Below, piece after piece: positions 18,210 through 26,315 of a DNA stretch of 64,000 nucleotides. The stretch covers positions 33,064-97,063 of the forward strand of contig JAQTPI010000003.1 in the NCBI GenBank assembly GCA_028748975.1, read 5' to 3'. Source of the stretch: Patescibacteria group bacterium. Lineage in GTDB: Bacteria; Patescibacteriota; Patescibacteriia; UBA2196. Positions within the stretch are counted from its first letter, which is position 1, and the number at the start of each line of letters is the position of its first letter. A program made the position numbers and the translations under genes. The notes beneath the pieces were generated by a model. That model was not told the origin of the DNA and did no database searches. It worked only from the letters and a program-made list of their open reading frames with translations.

Positions 18210-20300
18210 CTATTTTTTATCAACTAGTCCCTTCTTTTCAAGAATCTTCTCCACCACCATTTGCGGGGCGGGCTGATAATGCGAAAATTCCATGGTGAAA
18301 GAAGCGCGGCCTTGGGAGAGGGAGCGCACGGCGGTGGCGTAGCCAAACATGGAGGCCAGCGGCACTTCGCCATCAATAACTTTCATTTTGGCGCGGTCTT
18401 TCATTTCATGAATGACGGCACGGCGAGAGTTCAAATCGCCAATCACATCGCCCATATTTATTTCCGGCGTAACCACTTCAATTTTCATAATCGGCTCCAG
18501 TAAAACCGGCTTGGCGCGTCTGGCAGCTTCTTTAAAACCCAAAATACCCGCCATTTTAAACGCGGCTTCGGAAGAGTCAACTTCGTGGTAGGAACCATAA
18601 AACACGGCCACGGAAACATCCACCATGGGGTAGCCGGCGACGACGCCATTGCTCATGGCTTCAATCACGCCTTTTTCAATGGCCGGAATATATTCTTTGG
18701 GAATGATGCCGCCTTTGATTTCATCAATAAATTCAAAACCAGCGCCACGTTCGCGCGGAGAGACGCGCAATTCGCAGTGGCCATATTGGCCGCGGCCGCC
18801 GGACTGCTTGATATATTTGCCTTCGCCCTCAGCGGTGGCGGAAATTGTTTCTTTGTACGCCACCTGCGGGGCGCCGACATTGCATTCCACTTTAAATTCG
18901 CGTTTCATGCGCTCCACCATGACGTCAAGGTGAAGTTCGCCCATACCGGCGACAATTGTTTCCAAAGTTTCTTCGTCAGTGTGCGCTTTGAAAGTCGGAT
19001 CTTCTTTCATTAATTTTTGCAAAGCCATGCCCATTCTTTCCTGATCGCCTTTGGTTTTCGGCTCAATGGCAATCTGAATGACGGGGTCGGCAAATTTTAT
19101 TTTTTCCAAAATAATCGGGTGGTTTTCATCGCACATAGTGTCGCCGGTATTGGTGTCTTTCAGACCGACGGCCGCGGCGATTTCCCCGGAATAAACTTCA
19201 CTGACATCTTCTCTTTTATTGGCGTGCATGCGGACGATTCTGCCCAAACGTTCTTTTTGGCCATTAGAAGAATTCAAAACATAACTGCCGGCGGAAAGCG
19301 TGCCAGAATAAACGCGGAAAAAAGTTAAAGTGCCGACAAAGGGGTCGCTCGCAACCTTAAAAGCCAGCGCGGCAAAAGGCGCCGCGTCATCGGCCTTGCA
19401 TTCAATTCTTTTTTCTTCATTGCCCGGTTCAAAACCAGTAATGGGTGGCACGTCCAAAGGCGAGGGCAAATATTCCACGACGGCGTCCAACATTAATTGC
19501 ACGCCCTGATTGCTTAAAGCGTCGCCGCAGATGACGGGATAAAATTCACATTTGATAACCGCGGCGCGAATAGCGGCTTTGGCTTCGGAGACGGAAATTT
19601 CATGGCCGTTTAAAAATTTATCGGATAATTTATCATCGGTTTCCGCCACTTTTTCCATTAAAATTTCGCGGTATTTTTTGACATCTTCTTTCATTGTTTC
19701 GGGAATCGGAATTTCTACCACCTCCTCGCCGTTTTGTCCTTCAAATTTGTAGGCCTTTTCCGTGAGCAAATCAATAATTCCTTCAAAAGCGCTGTCCATG
19801 CCAATCGGGAGTTGGGCGGCCACGGCTTTGTCGCTCAATCTTTCTTTAATGGAATTCAAAGACATGTAAAAATCCGCGCCCAATTTTTTCATTTTATTGA
19901 TGTAACAAATGCGCGGGACGCCATATTTTTCCGCCTGATGCCAGACGGTTTCCGATTGCGGTTCCACGCCTTGAGAGCCATCGAAAACAGCCACGGCGCC
20001 GTCAAGGACGCGCAAAGATCTTTCCACTTCCACGGTGAAATCCACATGGCCAGGAGTATCAATAATATTAATGCGGTGGTCTTTCCAAAAACAAGTGGTA
20101 GCGGCGGAAGTGATCGTGATGCCGCGCTCTTTTTCCTGATCCATCCAGTCCATTTCAGCCGCGCCTTCGTGCACCTCGCCGATTTTGTGTTTTTTGCCGG
20201 TGTAAAACAAAATCCGCTCGGTAGTGGTCGTCTTACCGGCGTCAATGTGGGCCATGATGCCAATGTTTCTGGTGTTTTCGAGGGAATATTCTCGGGGCAT
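18210..20300 (-). CDS. fusA: Elongation factor G
   Basis: [26 protein letters not shown] and full EF-G domains. The start is trimmed to [14 protein letters not shown] because the ORF N-terminus runs into a GC-hairpin. Confidence 0.93.
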
Positions 20301-20635
20301 AGTTTTGATGGTGTCATCCTGAGGAGCGAGAGCGACGAAGGATCTCGTAATAAAAGTATCCGTCATCCCGAGGCCCGATAGCAATCGGGCCGATGGGATC
20401 TTGTAGCTATTGCCAGGATTTTAATTTTTAATTTCTAATTTCCAGTTTCCTAAAAAACCAAAAATCAGAAATCATTTATAATCATACACTAATTTTAAGA
20501 GAAAATAAAGGGGGGTCAAGGTACGGCCCCCTTTTTGCATACGATAAATATTTGTTTGTTTTTATCGCTTGAGAACTTGGAACTTAAGGGAAAGGGAGGC
20601 CGAGTTGGGGCCCTCTCTTTTGTGTCTAACAAATT

Positions 20636-20950
20636 TTATTTTTTATCCACAAATCCCAAAAATCTTGATGTAAAAAAACGAAATTCAAAACAAGAAAGCA
20701 TATTTTTTCCACGGCCCTCAACAATAAATAATGTCTTTTCGTCATGACTTCTGTTCGGTGCCCTGATACCCGTAACCAACATGATACCGCTTTCTCCGGA
20801 AGCTACACCACCGAAACGAACCTTTCTACCAACCCAGCTTTGTGCCATTTCAAAAAGTTTTTTGCGGGTCAAATCCCAATCAAAAAACTTTTCTTTTCTT
20901 TTACGGATAACGGCCAACAATTCATTTAAAATCCTTTCCACTACGCCCAA
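20636..20950 (-). CDS. Hypothetical 104-aa protein in a ~0.9-kb insertion between rpsG and fusA
   Basis: ORF only. No motif recognised. It is flanked by GC hairpins. Confidence 0.3.
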   Translation of the reverse strand: MGVVERILNELLAVIRKRKEKFFDWDLTRKKLFEMAQSWVGRKVRFGGVASGESGIMLVTGIRAPNRSHDEKTLFIVEGRGKNMLSCFEFRFFTSRFLGFVDKK

Positions 20951-21212
20951 TTCTCTGTACCCGGTTTCAATACTTATAAAAATTTCTTCAAAACTGCGAC
21001 CTTTTTCAGCATAAAGCCGAATGTCGTTGTTGTCTTGTTTCGTTTTTTCCTCCTTGCCCCGAGTTTATTGCGGGGGCTGTGTTTGGTTGTAATTTTTTTA
21101 TCATTCCCACGCAAGTGAAAATCCAATTTTCTGGATTCCCGCCTGCGCGGGAATGACATGGTTGCGGCTATTCGCAAATTTATTCGCAAACATTCGCAAA
21201 CATATTCGCGTG

Positions 21213-21686: not shown

Positions 21687-21804
21687 ATTATTTCAGAACT
21701 CAAAACTCAATTAACAAAACTCAAGACGGCCGTTTCCTTAATTCTTACTTTTAAATTCTTAATTCTCTTCCTTGTTTTTTGTTTATTGTGTTTTGTGTTT
21801 TTAT

Positions 21805-22224
21805 TTATTTTTTCCCTCGTTTAGTGCCATAAAGCGACCGCCCGCGCTTTCTGTTTTCCACACCCACGGTGTCGTATCGGCCGCGGACGATGTGATAACG
21901 GACGCCGGGCAAATCTTTCACACGGCCGCCGCGAATCATGACGATGGAGTGTTCCTGCAAATTATGGCCTTCGCCCGGAATGTAGGCGGTAACTTCTTCA
22001 CCGTTGGACAATCTGACTCTGGCCACTTTGCGCAAAGCCGAGTTTGGTTTTTTGGGAGTTCTGGTGGTAACTTTGGTGCAGACGCCGCGCTTAAAAGGGC
22101 TGCCTTTGGGCAATTCGCTTTTTTGTCTTTTGATTACATCCAAAACCGAAGACAAAGCCGGAGTCTTGGACTTGGCTTTTTTTGATTTTCTCGGTCGTTT
22201 GATGAGCTGATTAATTGTTGGCAT
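21805..22224 (-). CDS. rpsL: Ribosomal protein S12
   Basis: [16 protein letters not shown]…[16 protein letters not shown]…. It is the first gene of the str operon. Confidence 0.9.
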
Positions 22225-22329
22225 AACTTGTGTTTTCTCCCCTCCTTTTCAAGAGGGGGTCCGCCAGCTGGCGGAGGGGTGGTTATTTATTTCGCCGATA
22301 GGCGCATATTATTACTTAATCCATTATAC

Positions 22330-22358
22330 CTATATAAAAAAATCTTGTCAAATGAAAT
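22330..22358 (-). promoter_or_regulatory. Consensus promoter for the rpsL operon, preceded by a terminator hairpin
   Basis: The minus strand reads gcagggcctaaaaaccctgc-TTTTTTATTTCAT-TTGACA-agatttttttatatagg-TATAAT. Confidence 0.6.
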
Positions 22359-22401
22359 AAAAAAGCAGGGTTTTTAGGCCCTGCGGAGATTGGTGTATTT
22401 T

Positions 22402-22875
22402 TTATAGTTCCAGTGAAATTTTTTCAATTTCTTGGAACAACACGAGCGCCTTGACTTCCGGTTCTTTAATTGGCGGCGCGACCTCAAAAACTTTTACTTC
22501 CACCTGTTTTGCTTCTTCCACTTCATCTTTATATACCCCCGGGTAAATTCTTGCTCGATGACATAAACTCAAACAACGATAAGATTCATAACTACCCCAA
22601 TCAAAAGAAAATTTGATACCCAAATCTTCCATTTTTTCATTAATCGGTGTGGGGTGTCCGGAACTTACCATTTGATGAACGGTATATCCAACTTCAATTT
22701 CCCGATCTTTAGAAACCGTGCTGATAAACACCAGTTTAACACCCTTGGTTAAATTTTCTGAATTTTCCAAAACAAATAGCATGGCCTTCTTGCCAAAATC
22801 GCTCACGTATTTTTGGTTGGACGAAATGATAATTTTCCTCAATTCCGCCATTTGCTCCACGGTTGCCGGTTTCAC
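22402..22875 (-). CDS. Hypothetical protein, paralog 1 of a tandem pair (probable GTG start overlapping the upstream stop)
   Basis: VKPATVEQMAELRKIIISS…GKKAMLFVLENSEN… shares ordered similarity with the upstream gene. GTG/TGA overlap suggests translational coupling. Confidence 0.5.
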   Translation of the reverse strand: MKPATVEQMAELRKIIISSNQKYVSDFGKKAMLFVLENSENLTKGVKLVFISTVSKDREIEVGYTVHQMVSSGHPTPINEKMEDLGIKFSFDWGSYESYRCLSLCHRARIYPGVYKDEVEEAKQVEVKVFEVAPPIKEPEVKALVLFQEIEKISLEL

Positions 22876-23297
22876 CCCTTTCCTCCTTTTTTGGTTTTTG
22901 ATTGACATAAGGAAATTTTTTGAATATCAGCCGGCTTTGCTTCTAAGATCATCTCTTTGGAGACGCTATAAGAACCACTATAAAAGGATTTCTTACTGAT
23001 AAGCGCGCAAAAATAGTGATTGGGAATTCCACCACCCCTATCAAAACGTAAGTTAATTTTCATTCGCTCCGAAAAACGATCCAGGTTTATACTTCTCCGA
23101 CTACTACATATATCGTGAATTGTGCGAGCACCTTCTCGCCCCAACTTTGATCTCAAATATAAAACCACTTCTCTTGTTCCTTGTTTTGAATGTTCCAACA
23201 AATAAAGCATAACTTTCTTACCAAGCTCCGTACCCTGCGGCGCTTCTATAATTTTTTGGCGCAAGGCTACCATTTGCACTGTGGTCAGCGGCTTCAT
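22872..23297 (-). CDS. Hypothetical protein, paralog 2 of a tandem pair
   Basis: MKPLTTVQMVALRQKIIEAPQGTELGKKVMLYLLEHSKQGT… is preceded by AAAAGGAGG and by the hairpin-TTTTTTATTTCATTTGACA module. Confidence 0.5.
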   Translation of the reverse strand: MKPLTTVQMVALRQKIIEAPQGTELGKKVMLYLLEHSKQGTREVVLYLRSKLGREGARTIHDICSSRRSINLDRFSERMKINLRFDRGGGIPNHYFCALISKKSFYSGSYSVSKEMILEAKPADIQKISLCQSKTKKGGKG

Positions 23298-23454
23298 TTT
23301 TTTTCTTTGCACTCTTCCTCCTTTTATCGCCTGTGGCGATTGAGTTATGAAAAAACGTTTTCTTCTTATTTCTAACCTAGCATGAATAAAAAATCATGTC
23401 AAATGAAATAAAAAACCGGCGGAAGCTGGTTCCAGGCCGGTTCGGTATGTGGAG

Positions 23455-23718
23455 TCAAATGCCGCCAAGGTGTTTTCCTATTTTTTTTGGCGGTATGCCA
23501 AAATTTTGGAAAAAAGTAAGGGCTTCTCTTTTTATCTTTCTTTCTTCTTCAACTGAAAGAGTGGCTTTTCCTTTCTCTTCTTTAGCTGAAAGGGGTTCAG
23601 GAGGATAATCAGCACCCTCGTCCTCATAATAGCCGTCGGTAAAGACACCTACTTCTCCCAAAATTCTGGTTTGCAAAAGAAAGCTTAAAAAATTGTTTTT
23701 GAGCCGTCGCCAACACAT
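23455..23718 (-). CDS. Hypothetical 87-aa protein
   Basis: ORF only. Confidence 0.3.
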   Translation of the reverse strand: MCWRRLKNNFLSFLLQTRILGEVGVFTDGYYEDEGADYPPEPLSAKEEKGKATLSVEEERKIKREALTFFQNFGIPPKKIGKHLGGI

Positions 23719-23786
23719 GTGACCTCCTGGTTTGATTTATTTTGTTTATGAATTAAAACTATCAAAAATAAAGTTATTTGTCAAAA

Positions 23787-24404
23787 TTAAACACTTAGCA
23801 ACAAATGATAAACCCAGTACACAATCGGCGTGAGGATTTGAAAACCGAAGAAAAGAAAAATTATTAAAATTATGAAACCGCTGCGTTCCAGCTGTGCCTG
23901 AAAATGGCGGGTGGAGGCGGGCAAAAGCGCGAAAAGAATTTTGGAGCCGTCCAGGGGCGGAATCGGCACCAAATTAAAAATTGCCAAAAGCACATTGGCA
24001 AAAACGATAATTGACAGGAGTTGAAAAAAGGCCGCGGACAAAAAAGTGAATGATAAAATTTTGATAAGCAAAGAAAAAATAATGGCCAAAATTAAATTGG
24101 AGGCTGGACCGGCAAGCGCCACCATGGCCGGGCCAAAGCGACGGCTAGAAAGATTATAAGGATTATAGGGCACGGGTTTGGCATAGGCAAACATAAAATT
24201 TCCGCCGGAAACAAAAAGCAAAAACAAAGGCAGAAGAATCGTGCCATAAATATCAATGTGGGCCAGCGGATTCAAAGTCAGCCGGCCGGCGTGTCTGGCG
24301 GTCGGATCGCCGAGTTTGTCCGCCACCAAACCGTGCGCGTATTCGTGCACGATGGAGGAAGGAATAATAATGAGAAAATAGAATAGAAGTTGAATGATAT
24401 TCAT
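23787..24404 (-). CDS. Site-2 protease family (peptidase M50) membrane metalloprotease
   Basis: HEYAHG (HExxH) in TM1 and NLVPIPPLDGSK (the LDG motif) in a polytopic membrane protein. Confidence 0.8.
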   Translation of the reverse strand: MNIIQLLFYFLIIIPSSIVHEYAHGLVADKLGDPTARHAGRLTLNPLAHIDIYGTILLPLFLLFVSGGNFMFAYAKPVPYNPYNLSSRRFGPAMVALAGPASNLILAIIFSLLIKILSFTFLSAAFFQLLSIIVFANVLLAIFNLVPIPPLDGSKILFALLPASTRHFQAQLERSGFIILIIFLFFGFQILTPIVYWVYHLLLSV

Positions 24405-24937: not shown

Positions 24938-25410
24938 AGAAAATTATTTTTGGTCTTCCCTTATTACTTATTACTAGTTACTTATTACCCATTATATTAA
25001 CACGAGATCCTTCGTCCTCTCCGCCAGCTGGCGGATCGTCCTCAGGATGACACTCTTTTGGAGAACAAAAAGGGGTTATTAGGCAGCTTAATCTAATTCC
25101 CTAAAAGTCAGATGAACCGCGCCGATGACAGTGTGTTTTTCTTACTGCCAAAGACGAACTGAATTCTTGGCCTAAAAACCAACACGGAGTCGGTTTTCGG
25201 CTAATTTCAGCCAAAACGGCCTCGGGAATCCTTGACCGCAAACCCACGGGCTGGCGATATGCAGATTCCACAATTTGCTGTTGTAGAAATTAGAAAACTG
25301 GCCTGTAACCCCAAGGTCATTATAGCATATTAGCATAGAGCATAAAAACATAAAAATACAAATCATACCTCTCTCCTTTTATAAATAAAAAAGGCGAGAT
25401 TATTTCTCGC

Positions 25411-25832
25411 CTAAGTTTTCTTGTGGGGGTAACGTTTTTTAAGGATTGGCATTATGGTTTCTGATAGTGAAAACGGCTTTTTTACAAAAATATTCATAAT
25501 GGTTGGGCGTGCGATATCTGGAGCGTCATAGCCAGAGATGATGATAATAAAAATTTCCGGGAAACGTTCTCTTAGTTTGATAGCCATGTCTTTCCCATCA
25601 CACCCCCCCCTAAATCAATTATGGCGGTGTCGATATTTTGTAAATTATTTTTTTGCAAATCAAGTATGAGTTGATCAGGATCATTATAGGAAATAAATGG
25701 GATGTCGCATTCTTCTAGCATCATTTCTAAGTAACTACGAACGCCATATTCATCTTCTAAAATTAAAACCATTTTATCCTCCTTCATGAATTGTAAACTT
25801 AAAAGATAATATACTAAATAATAACAAGCCAC
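25411..25832 (-). pseudogene. CheY-like single-domain response regulator interrupted by a frameshift in a C8/G8 homopolymer
   Basis: Upstream frame: MVLILEDEYGVRSYLEMMLEECDIPFISYNDPDQLILDLQKNNLQNIDTAIIDLGGG…. The shifted frame continues …DMAIKLRERFPEIFIIIISGYDAPDIARPTIMNIFVKKPFSLSETIMPILKK, with the frame change in the run ccccccccc at 25603-25610. Confidence 0.6.
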
Positions 25833-25942
25833 AAAATTTTGTCAAGTTTAATAATTTTATTTTATAAAAGTATAAGAATAAAAAAATAAAACCCCCAATT
25901 AAAAACTGGGGGTCAAAGAACGATGTAGGGATGTTAAAATGA

Positions 25943-26122
25943 TTACTTGGCGCCTCTGATTGCCTGGCAGATGGCGTCGACAATAACCAAAATAAAAATC
26001 AGGCCGCACAGAATAGTAAGAAAAATCCAGATAACCTCGTTTGAGTGGTATTTAATAGGTGTGGCAAAAAGCGCCGTTAAAATGGCAAAAATCAACCCGA
26101 GAATCGCATGATAGAGCAGCAT
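25943..26122 (-). CDS. Small (59-aa) two-TM membrane protein, tandem paralog A
   Basis: MLLYHAILGLIFAILTALFATPIKYHSNEVIWIFLTILCGLIFILVIVDAICQAIRGAK. The RBS is GGAGGAAAAAAGATG. Confidence 0.5.
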   Translation of the reverse strand: MLLYHAILGLIFAILTALFATPIKYHSNEVIWIFLTILCGLIFILVIVDAICQAIRGAK

Positions 26123-26141
26123 CTTTTTTCCTCCTTTGTTA

Positions 26142-26315
26142 TTAATTGCGTCTGATTGCCTGGCAGATTCCTTCGACAATAACTGCAACAAAAAGAAGGC
26201 CACATACGATAATAAGAAAAACCCAGGTAGGACTTGGGCTGGCTTTCATAAATGCGCCACATATCGCTATGAAAGTGGCTAAAATAATCGCAGCAACCCA
26301 ACAAATACCGCCCAT
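26142..26315 (-). CDS. Small (57-aa) two-TM membrane protein, tandem paralog B
   Basis: MGGICWVAAIILATFIAICGAFMKASPSPTWVFLIIVCGLLFVAVIVEGICQAIRRN, found by hand translation. It has the same RBS and a conserved C-terminus. A promoter TTGACA-16-TATAAT lies at ~26355-26385 on the minus strand. Confidence 0.5.
   Translation of the reverse strand: MGGICWVAAIILATFIAICGAFMKASPSPTWVFLIIVCGLLFVAVIVEGICQAIRRN

What the first reader, a model, noticed from the sequence alone, without database searches (positions are those of the whole stretch)
22402..23297. Translationally coupled tandem paralog pair at the head of the str operon region
Two adjacent minus-strand genes (about 141 aa and 157 aa) are recognisably homologous to each other (…KP.T..QM..LR.KII…G…GKK.ML..LE.S…). 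The second appears to start at a GTG that overlaps the first gene's TGA (GTGA), and the GGAGG sits inside the upstream coding sequence.

Each copy has its own hairpin-TTTTTTATTTCATTTGACA promoter module. They sit where rpoB/rpoC would be expected upstream of rpsL. No family is recognised.
Basis: seen in the sequence. Interest (0 to 1): 0.55.

Follow-up and report, generated by a model that had tools for sequence, protein, structure and literature searches.

The report
Coupled paralog pair, undescribed Patescibacteria family
Two small overlapping genes upstream of rpsL in a Patescibacteria genome are real diverged duplicates from a small, unnamed protein family found so far only in Patescibacteria; the arrangement is an ordinary tandem duplication, and what the proteins do is unknown.

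Summary
The core observation holds. Gene A (22872-23312, minus strand, 146 aa) and gene B (22402-22875, minus strand, 157 aa) are paralogs (BLASTP E 4e-15, 32% identity). B starts at a GTG inside GTGA, overlapping A's stop, with GGAGG 6 nt upstream inside A.

Two details are wrong. The two hairpin/TTTTTTATTTCATTTGACA modules bracket the pair: one lies upstream of A, the other downstream of B, where it is the rpsL promoter. In relatives, the normal upstream neighbour of rpsL is an M50 peptidase gene, not rpoBC. The pair sits in a variable insertion slot.

Both proteins belong to an unnamed family with about 100 clusters at 50% identity. Every named member is from Patescibacteria. Pfam, NCBIfam, PHROGs, PADLOC and PDB sequences give no match. 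AlphaFold2 models B confidently (pLDDT 93), but Foldseek finds no neighbour in PDB or BFVD.

Related genomes carry one copy behind the same promoter and leader. A's last 11 codons derive from that leader, a scar of tandem duplication. Other members fuse two or three copies in one chain with an 11-residue linker.

Best reading: a bicistronic accessory operon whose products probably pair. A is very basic (pI 10.2) and B acidic (pI 5.7). Interest is modest.

The parts
23787..24404 (-). M50-family peptidase gene, the conserved upstream neighbour of rpsL in relatives
   Evidence: Pfam Peptidase_M50, E 1.7e-17. M50 is followed by rpsL on the same strand in 37 Patescibacteria species genomes, median gap 152 nt.
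23455..23718 (-). 87-aa ORF of unknown function, with its own Shine-Dalgarno sequence. It is another occupant of the slot.
   Evidence: AGGAGG lies before the ATG. The C-terminal 28 residues (..FFxxxGIPPxKIGxxxG) match an ORF on L001 that lies directly upstream of rpsL (E 2e-7). No Pfam, PHROGs, NCBIfam or PADLOC hit.
23410..23440 (-). Intrinsic terminator of the 87-aa ORF: CCGGC...GCCGG hairpin plus T6
   Evidence: RNA fold -15.2 kcal/mol, z -3.4; 0 of 200 shuffles fold as well.
23388..23415 (-). Copy 1 of the 28-nt module (T-tract, ATTTCAT, -35 TTGACA at 23402-23397, start of spacer). With a weak -10 TAGGTT at 23379-23374 it forms the promoter of A-B.
   Evidence: Direct repeat, 27/28 identical to 22337-22364. 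Only two exact copies of the 19-mer occur in 64 kb; expected 0.3. The promoter and the leader downstream of it are orthologous to those of the single-copy genes on L001 and L012.
23313..23373 (-). 5' leader of A with GGAGG at 23321-23317
   Evidence: Aligns with the leaders upstream of the single-copy homologs on L001 and L012.
22872..23312 (-). Gene A (NCBI PHT40_01690), 146 aa, pI 10.2, the divergent paralog
   Evidence: ORF. NCBI name. 88.6 bits against the leave-out family profile and pI/charge. It has lost conserved residues: S19A, L42G, T76I, G86K in B numbering.
22875..22907 (-). The last 11 codons of A (CQSKTKKGGKG). They derive from the ancestral 5' leader, contain B's GGAGG (22886-22882), and are the scar of the duplication.
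   Evidence: Aligns with CAATCAA..AAACCAA..AAAGGAGG......GTGAAACCGGCAACCG of the L001 and L012 leaders. Relatives end 1-3 residues after the conserved ..I..ISL motif.
22872..22875 (-). GTGA start/stop overlap, preceded by a run of G (22878-22875)
   Evidence: Read directly from the sequence.
22402..22875 (-). Gene B (NCBI PHT40_01685), 157 aa, pI 5.7, the canonical paralog
   Evidence: ORF. 60-61% identical to the L001 homolog P0003. dN/dS 0.46 against it. 95.1 bits against the leave-out profile. Keeps all the most conserved family residues. AlphaFold2 pLDDT 93.
22359..22384 (-). Intrinsic terminator of the A-B operon: GCAGGG...CCCTGC hairpin plus T6
   Evidence: Terminator scan. Fold -11.2 kcal/mol, z -3.8.
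22323..22364 (-). Copy 2 of the 28-nt module (22337-22364) within the rpsL promoter: TTGACA 22351-22346, 17-nt spacer, TATAAT 22328-22323
   Evidence: 12 of 12 consensus match. Repeat.
21805..22224 (-). rpsL (ribosomal protein S12), first gene of the str operon
   Evidence: ORF translation. 86% identical to the rpsL gene on L001, which is annotated Ribosom_S12_S23.

Best explanation
A and B form a self-contained bicistronic operon: promoter at 23374-23402, then A, B, and a terminator at 22359-22384. They encode two diverged copies of an undescribed ~140-residue alpha/beta domain family known so far only from Patescibacteria.

The pair arose by tandem duplication of a single-copy gene. In related genomes that gene sits in the variable slot between the M50 peptidase gene and rpsL, behind the same promoter and leader. 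The duplicated unit included about 30 nt of the leader with its Shine-Dalgarno sequence. The upstream copy now reads through that former leader, adding 11 residues, and stops on the TGA that overlaps the downstream copy's GTG. B is therefore probably translated by ribosomes that have just finished A.

B keeps the conserved polar residues of the family (Q8, K29, H67, S71, T76). A has lost several conserved positions and has become very basic (net charge about +18, against about -3 for B).

Most likely the two proteins pair as a heterodimer. That would be the two-gene equivalent of family members that carry two or three copies of the domain in one chain.

**Shown:** paralogy, the overlap, the transcription-unit boundaries, family membership, the duplication scar, the synteny, and the existence of fused relatives.

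**Inferred:** translational coupling in vivo, heterodimer formation, and any biochemical role. The biochemical function is unknown. The patchy distribution and fast evolution point to an accessory role rather than a core one.
For: - **Paralogy:** E 4e-15.
- **Start of B:** GTGA overlap with GGAGG 6 nt upstream. The same start and Shine-Dalgarno spacing occur on L001, with an in-frame stop upstream.
- **Transcription unit:** no promoter-like or terminator-like site on the coding strand between A and B; a terminator and a perfect promoter lie between B and rpsL.
- **Family:** 105 cluster representatives at E <= 1e-3. The named ones come from Parcubacteria-group, Kuenenbacteria, Falkowbacteria and Doudnabacteria MAGs.
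- **Membership:** the leave-out profile scores B at 95.1 bits and A at 88.6 bits.
- **Single-copy relatives behind the same promoter and leader:** L001 and L012.
- **Relative directly upstream of rpsL:** L014.
- **Duplication scar:** A's tail aligns with that leader.
- **Fused relatives:** P0007 has two full domains joined as ..INAVSLEG-CEKKNELAKEE-IKPITDDQM. P0004 has three copies; P0009, P0010 and P0014 have two.
- **Charge:** pI 10.2 for A and 5.7 for B.
- **Conserved residues:** all kept in B, partly lost in A.
- **Selection on B:** dN/dS 0.46.
- **Slot:** M50 to rpsL adjacency is the common state, and the slot is variable.
Against: - No direct evidence of expression, coupling or interaction.
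- A has no ortholog in any collection searched, so selection on A cannot be measured.
- In a neighbour-joining tree A never groups with B (0 of 200 bootstraps) and sits at the base of the str-locus clade. The duplication is therefore either old, with A lost elsewhere, or A diverged fast. The order of events is not settled.
- Most family members are single genes, so a heteromer is not a family requirement.
Confidence: 0.7

Rival explanations
1. A-B is really one two-domain gene, like P0007. The split would come from an assembly error in the G run, a recent frameshift mutation, or a -1 ribosomal slip on G GGG UGA that makes a fused protein alongside free A.
For: Fused two- and three-domain relatives exist, and the P0007 linker is 11 residues, the same length as A's tail. 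B's frame is -1 relative to A. The glycine tRNA on GGG could re-pair on the preceding GGG of the four-G run, and the next codon would then be GTG AAA CCG (read).
Against: The Shine-Dalgarno-to-GTG arrangement is the same one that starts the single-copy genes on L001 and L012. The tail is a leader remnant, not a conserved linker. There is no X XXY YYZ slippery heptamer. NCBI annotates two genes. A GTGA overlap is a standard stop/start junction.
Confidence: 0.08
2. A is a decaying duplicate with no function of its own, and only B matters.
For: A has lost four of the most conserved family positions. It has no ortholog and carries a non-homologous tail.
Against: The 146-codon frame is intact. A scores 88.6 bits against a profile built only from distant members, as well as the other str-locus members do. 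Its branch is no longer than the branches of its relatives, and it sits at the base of the clade, which implies long retention. It holds the promoter-proximal position that feeds B.
Confidence: 0.1
3. The pair is a mobile or recombination-shuffled cassette bounded by the 28-nt direct repeats. These would be att-like sites or substrates for homologous recombination.
For: A 27/28 direct repeat brackets exactly the pair. On L014 a 41-nt repeat (35/41), with a different sequence, brackets the single family gene next to rpsL. On L001 each small gene in the slot is preceded by a similar module, and the gene order differs from the window. The slot content differs between relatives.
Against: No integrase or transposase is present. 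The repeats coincide with the terminator T-tract, the -35 box and the spacer, all of which are functionally constrained. TTGACAnnATTTTT is generally enriched in the window, 7 matches against 2.7 expected. The family has no match in phage, plasmid or viral collections.
Confidence: 0.1
4. The pair is a two-gene addiction or defence module of the toxin-antitoxin type.
For: Two small overlapping genes, one basic and one acidic, with a patchy distribution, in a variable slot.
Against: The two proteins are paralogs of each other. Most relatives are single genes or fused repeats. There are no Pfam or PADLOC matches.
Confidence: 0.02

Closest known systems
Unnamed hypothetical proteins of Patescibacteria carrying the same domain, for example MFH0780213.1 (Parcubacteria group, 586 aa, three copies), NQT49909.1 (Kuenenbacteria, 431 aa, two copies), MBI5076936.1 (Falkowbacteria, 279 aa) and MFA4880352.1 (Doudnabacteria)
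   Same: They share the ~140-residue domain, with consensus T..Q..AL...I..S.D...F.KK...WLL..S..LTK.V...G.HDM.S....T.L...MG....F..H.G...G.T.W...YD..A....I..I.L.
   Different: Those proteins carry the copies in one chain, often after an unrelated ~140-residue N-terminal domain (hhalign probability 0.5%). They sit in other contexts, such as between recJ and lepA. Here there are two separate overlapping genes next to rpsL.
Co-transcribed tandem paralogs that form 1:1 heterodimers, for example EsxA/EsxB (ESAT-6/CFP-10). This comparison is from general knowledge and was not tested here.
   Same: Small adjacent paralogous genes in one operon, and the expectation of equimolar synthesis and pairing.
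   Different: There is no sequence or fold relation and no secretion-system context. Pairing of A and B is inferred, not shown.
Winged helix-turn-helix regulators (MarR, PadR, RTP, STIV F93)
   Same: The order of secondary-structure elements in the core (helix, strand, helix, helix, strand, strand; residues 26-106 of B) is what a winged helix would give. Several such proteins appear among the weak Foldseek matches.
   Different: None of these matches is significant: E >= 1, probability <= 0.07, TM <= 0.25. No HTH family hit appears in Pfam. This is a lead only.
Type II toxin-antitoxin operons
   Same: Two small overlapping genes with opposite net charge.
   Different: The partners here are homologous to each other, and the family occurs mostly as single genes. 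No toxin-antitoxin or defence family match was found.

Membership tests
   B has all of them. A keeps Q, L, I, K, T, V, H and S71, but has A, G, I and K at S19, L42, T76 and G86.
   B ends EIEKISLEL. A has DIQKISL followed by an extra 11-residue tail.
str operon (co-transcription with rpsL-rpsG-fusA) | No terminator or separate promoter between the gene and rpsL | tested here: not met
   A hairpin of -11.2 kcal/mol with T6, then TTGACA-17-TATAAT (12 of 12), lie between B and rpsL.
Type II toxin-antitoxin module | Two unrelated partners belonging to known toxin and antitoxin families | tested here: not met
   The partners are paralogs. No Pfam or PADLOC hits.
Winged helix-turn-helix DNA-binding proteins | Significant sequence or structure match to a wHTH family | tested here: inconclusive
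Programmed -1 frameshift genes (dnaX type) | X XXY YYZ slippery heptamer in the zero frame with a stimulator | tested here: not met
   Only a single-codon G GGG site lies next to the stop; no tandem slippery heptamer (sequence).
Phage, plasmid or mobile-element gene | Homologs in phage, plasmid or viral collections, or adjacent recombinase genes | tested here: not met
   No match in IMG/VR, INPHARED or PLSDB. PHROGs gives nothing better than E 0.083. No recombinase ORF nearby.

The most novel reading that the evidence does not exclude
The domain is a previously unseen fold that works as a dimeric nucleic-acid-binding regulator specific to Patescibacteria. The A/B heterodimer would recognise the 28-nt module shared by its own promoter and the rpsL promoter, tying its expression to that of the str operon. 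The twin-promoter architecture recurs on L014 with a different sequence, which could mean co-evolution of protein and site.
Probability: 0.05. Interest if true: 0.65.

Novelty: new variant of a known kind. Interest (0 to 1): 0.33.

Why it matters
Patescibacteria genomes are small, and much of their lineage-specific gene content is unannotated. Meheust et al. 2019 (PMC6744442) note that families enriched in Parcubacteria are primarily hypothetical proteins.

This pair gives a clean, datable example of how such a family grows. The steps are a tandem duplication that carries the leader along, read-through into the old leader, start/stop overlap, asymmetric divergence, and fusion into multi-domain proteins in other lineages.

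The family also gives a confident structure model with no detectable neighbour, which makes it a reasonable target for structural genomics.

The M50-rpsL slot, with duplicated copies of the rpsL promoter around inserted genes, is a small but reusable observation about where accessory genes land in these genomes.

None of this overturns anything, and the value is mainly descriptive until a function is found.

Tried and rejected
- **Family libraries.** Pfam, NCBIfam, PHROGs and PADLOC on A, B and relatives gave only noise: DUF1378 E 0.24, AH_C E 0.012, an endolysin PHROG E 0.083, a glycosylhydrolase NCBIfam at 15.7 bits against a 175-bit cut-off.
- **PDB sequence search with the family profile.** It returned only designed helical repeats at E about 1.
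- **First AlphaFold2 run.** With 3 sequences it was useless (pLDDT 43.6). The 93-sequence run was good.
- **Collection scans for family loci.** GTDB genomes, JGI metagenomes (twice) and IMG/VR returned nothing. One alignment was too diverse to search with.
- **Alternative ATG start for B at 22908.** It would give an N-terminus resembling A's, but it was rejected. It has no Shine-Dalgarno sequence, the L001 homolog has a stop upstream of its GTG, and the resemblance is just the translated AAAAAGGAGG.
- **N-terminal domain of the long family members.** It is not a hidden extra copy of the domain (hhalign probability 0.5%). Its apparent PCNA match (E 1e-4) comes from summing three weak hits on a triple-fused PCNA chain; native PCNA gives E 1.2.
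- **Gene upstream of P0011 on L009.** It is not a detectable paralog.
- **Link between the L002 context and window 25400-26300.** Not supported.
- **Rfam.** It finds only four tRNAs in the window and no RNA element in the locus.

Full report
**What is in the sequence**

On the minus strand the order is:
- M50 peptidase gene (23787-24404; Pfam E 1.7e-17)
- an 87-aa ORF (23455-23718)
- gene A (22872-23312)
- gene B (22402-22875)
- rpsL (21805-22224), then rpsG and fusA

NCBI annotates A and B as hypothetical proteins PHT40_01690 and PHT40_01685 of a 'Patescibacteria group bacterium' MAG.

A and B are homologous: BLASTP E 4e-15, 32% identity over 137 residues. B's GTG (22875-22873) and A's TGA (22874-22872) form GTGA, and GGAGG (22886-22882) lies 6 nt upstream, inside A.

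An alternative ATG for B at 22908 has no Shine-Dalgarno sequence. The closest homolog (P0003 on L001, 60-61% identity) starts at the same GTG AAA CCG GCA ACC, with AAGGAGG 6 nt upstream and an in-frame TAA five codons before it.

**Transcription signals**

Its 19-nt core occurs exactly twice in the 64 kb, against 0.3 expected.

- One copy lies upstream of A. It follows the terminator of the 87-aa ORF (-15.2 kcal/mol, z -3.4) and supplies TTGACA, followed by a weak -10 TAGGTT.
- The other copy lies downstream of B. It follows a second terminator (-11.2 kcal/mol, z -3.8) and forms a perfect TTGACA-17-TATAAT promoter for rpsL.

The scan found no promoter-like or terminator-like site on the coding strand between A and B. 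A-B is thus its own two-gene unit. The modules bracket the pair rather than serving one gene each.

**The family**

Word-indexed searches found almost nothing: A matched only itself, and B matched itself plus one JGI protein.

An exhaustive HMMER search with a profile of A, B and P0003 found 105 cluster representatives at E <= 1e-3, 11 of them at E <= 1e-10. Most are 125-165 aa. All members that carry a name come from Patescibacteria MAGs: Parcubacteria group, Kuenenbacteria, Falkowbacteria and Doudnabacteria.

Nothing was found in:
- Pfam, NCBIfam, PHROGs or PADLOC
- PDB sequences
- IMG/VR viral contigs (close-relative patterns), or phage and plasmid records queried with one member each

A profile built without A, B and their five closest relatives still scores B at 95.1 bits and A at 88.6 bits. 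Both are therefore true members, and neither looks like a wreck. In the window only A and B match the family.

**Structure**

With the 93-sequence alignment, AlphaFold2 gives B a mean pLDDT of 93 and pTM of 0.89. The model is an alpha/beta domain with the element order H H E H H E E h H E H.

**Origin of the pair**

Three related contigs place a single family gene in the same neighbourhood:
- **L012:** L28 gene, M50 peptidase gene, then P0008, where the contig ends.
- **L014:** M50 gene, four other genes, P0006, then rpsL and rpsG.
- **L001:** promoter, P0003, two small genes, then rpsL and rpsG.

The promoter and the ~60-nt leader upstream of A align along their length with those upstream of P0003 and P0008.

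The last 11 codons of A (CQSKTKKGGKG, 22875-22907) align with the 3' part of that same leader: CAATCAA..AAACCAA..AAAGGAGG......GTG. Relatives end one to three residues after the conserved ..I..ISL motif, which A also has as DIQKISL.

This is the scar of a tandem duplication whose unit included the leader's ribosome-binding region. The upstream copy now reads through it to the TGA that overlaps the downstream start.

The timing is unclear. The six str-locus members form a clade with 93% bootstrap support and B groups with P0003 at 93%, but A never groups with B and sits at the base of the clade. Either the duplication is old and A was lost elsewhere, or A diverged fast. A has no ortholog in any collection searched.

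**Divergence of the copies**

B keeps every one of the most conserved family positions. A has replaced four of them: S19A, L42G, T76I and G86K. A is the most basic member in the alignment (pI 10.19, net charge about +18). B is acidic (pI 5.71, about -3), and the family median pI is 6.5. B compared with P0003 gives dN/dS 0.46, while rpsL is 86% identical between the same two genomes. The family evolves fast but is under constraint.

**Why a heterodimer is the best guess**

Several members carry two or three copies of the domain in one chain: P0007 and P0079 have two; P0009, P0010 and P0014 have two after an unrelated N-terminal domain; P0004 has three.

In P0007 the junction reads ..INAVSLEG-CEKKNELAKEE-IKPITDDQM... 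In the window the equivalent stretch is ..IQKISL-CQSKTKKGGKG(stop)/V-KPATVEQM... The A-B pair is one frameshift away from that architecture.

Fused homologs, start/stop overlap and opposite charge together make pairing of A and B the most economical reading. None of this is direct evidence, and I could not run a complex prediction.

**Genomic setting**

In 37 Patescibacteria species genomes the M50 gene is followed by rpsL on the same strand. The median gap is 152 nt; 24 genomes have under 300 nt and 10 have 600 nt or more. The window's gap is 1562 nt.

None of the expanded slots in those genomes holds a family member. The three closest genomes (L018-L020) carry a ~190-aa ORF with a DLGCGTG motif there. 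The L019 ORF matches methyltransferase domains (Methyltransf_25, E 7e-7).

The slot is therefore a recurrent insertion site, the family is patchy, and rpoBC is not the expected neighbour in this lineage. Elsewhere the family sits among unrelated housekeeping genes: recJ and lepA, rmuC and uvrA, tmk and nusG. Context gives no function.

**The twin promoter**

On L014 a different 41-nt sequence (35/41 identical) brackets the single family gene, and its second copy is the rpsL promoter. On L001 each small gene of the slot is preceded by a variant of the window's module. The gene order also differs: the 87-aa-like ORF lies between the family gene and rpsL on L001, but upstream of A-B in the window.

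Genes inserted here seem to carry, or acquire, a copy of the local rpsL promoter core. Three explanations remain open:
- promoter duplication at insertion
- recombination between modules
- selection for the same strong promoter

Part of the motif (TTGACAnnATTTTT) is generally enriched in the window, with 7 matches against 2.7 expected.

**Verdict**

The promoter description and the rpoBC framing need correction. What is there is an ordinary evolutionary product, a tandem duplicate with start/stop overlap. The family it belongs to is undescribed, known only from Patescibacteria, and confidently foldable without a detectable structural neighbour. Function is unknown. A heterodimeric accessory protein, possibly binding nucleic acid through the basic subunit, is my best guess with low confidence in the biochemical part.

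Noticed in passing
window 22225-23786; loci L018-L085: The M50 peptidase to rpsL adjacency is widespread in Patescibacteria (37 genomes, median gap 152 nt). About a quarter of genomes have 0.6-4.3 kb inserted there with differing content. L018-L020 carry a ~190-aa ORF with a DLGCGTG motif; the L019 ORF matches methyltransferase domains in Pfam.
   Followed up: partly
L014 5284-5324 and 5969-6009; L001 1-31, 619-642, 1404-1434, 1856-1886: Copies of the local rpsL promoter core flank each small gene inserted upstream of rpsL. The module sequence differs between genomes but is similar within a genome. This could be concerted evolution or promoter duplication at insertion.
   Followed up: partly
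window 23455-23718 (-); L001 1369-1815: A small ORF with a conserved C-terminal motif FFxxxGIPPxKIGxxxG (E 2e-7 between the two) and no family match. Its position relative to the A/B family gene differs between the two genomes.
   Followed up: partly
window 25943-26203 (-) and 26142-26315 (-): A second tandem paralog pair: two small predicted membrane proteins sharing ..W.FL.I.CGL.F..VIV..ICQAIR (BLASTP E 4e-12, 60% identity over 30 residues). The ORFs overlap as listed.
   Followed up: partly
window 25411-25832 (-): Two short ORFs in different frames, when joined, cover a whole response-regulator receiver domain (Pfam Response_reg positions 1-105 of 111, E 1.3e-4, below the curated cut-off). 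This is probably a frameshifted or degenerate receiver gene.
   Followed up: partly
window 20385-21212: The spacer between rpsG and fusA is unusually long, about 0.9 kb counted to fusA's likely ATG near 20300. It contains a 104-aa ORF (20636-20950) with no family match, a GTCATTCCCGCGCAGGCGGGAATCCAG palindromic repeat near 21130-21157, short tandem repeats (21168-21209) and several GC-rich hairpins.
   Followed up: no
L001 2466-2560; window 21737-21806: The rpsL-rpsG spacer carries short A/C-rich tandem repeats in both genomes: a roughly 33-nt unit repeated on L001, and 7-nt units in the window.
   Followed up: no
L015 6001-7195; L009 5587-6519: Elsewhere, a family member (P0021) overlaps by 8 nt a downstream SAM-methyltransferase gene. 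Another (P0011) follows, after 21 nt, a 159-aa gene with a sub-threshold RNA polymerase alpha-CTD-like hit (E 4e-4).
   Followed up: no
L006 8001-9761, L007 8001-9296, L016 6001-6840: The long multi-domain family members share an unrelated ~140-residue N-terminal domain. They keep a conserved position between recJ/RNase H and lepA in Parcubacteria-group, Kuenenbacteria and Falkowbacteria genomes.
   Followed up: partly
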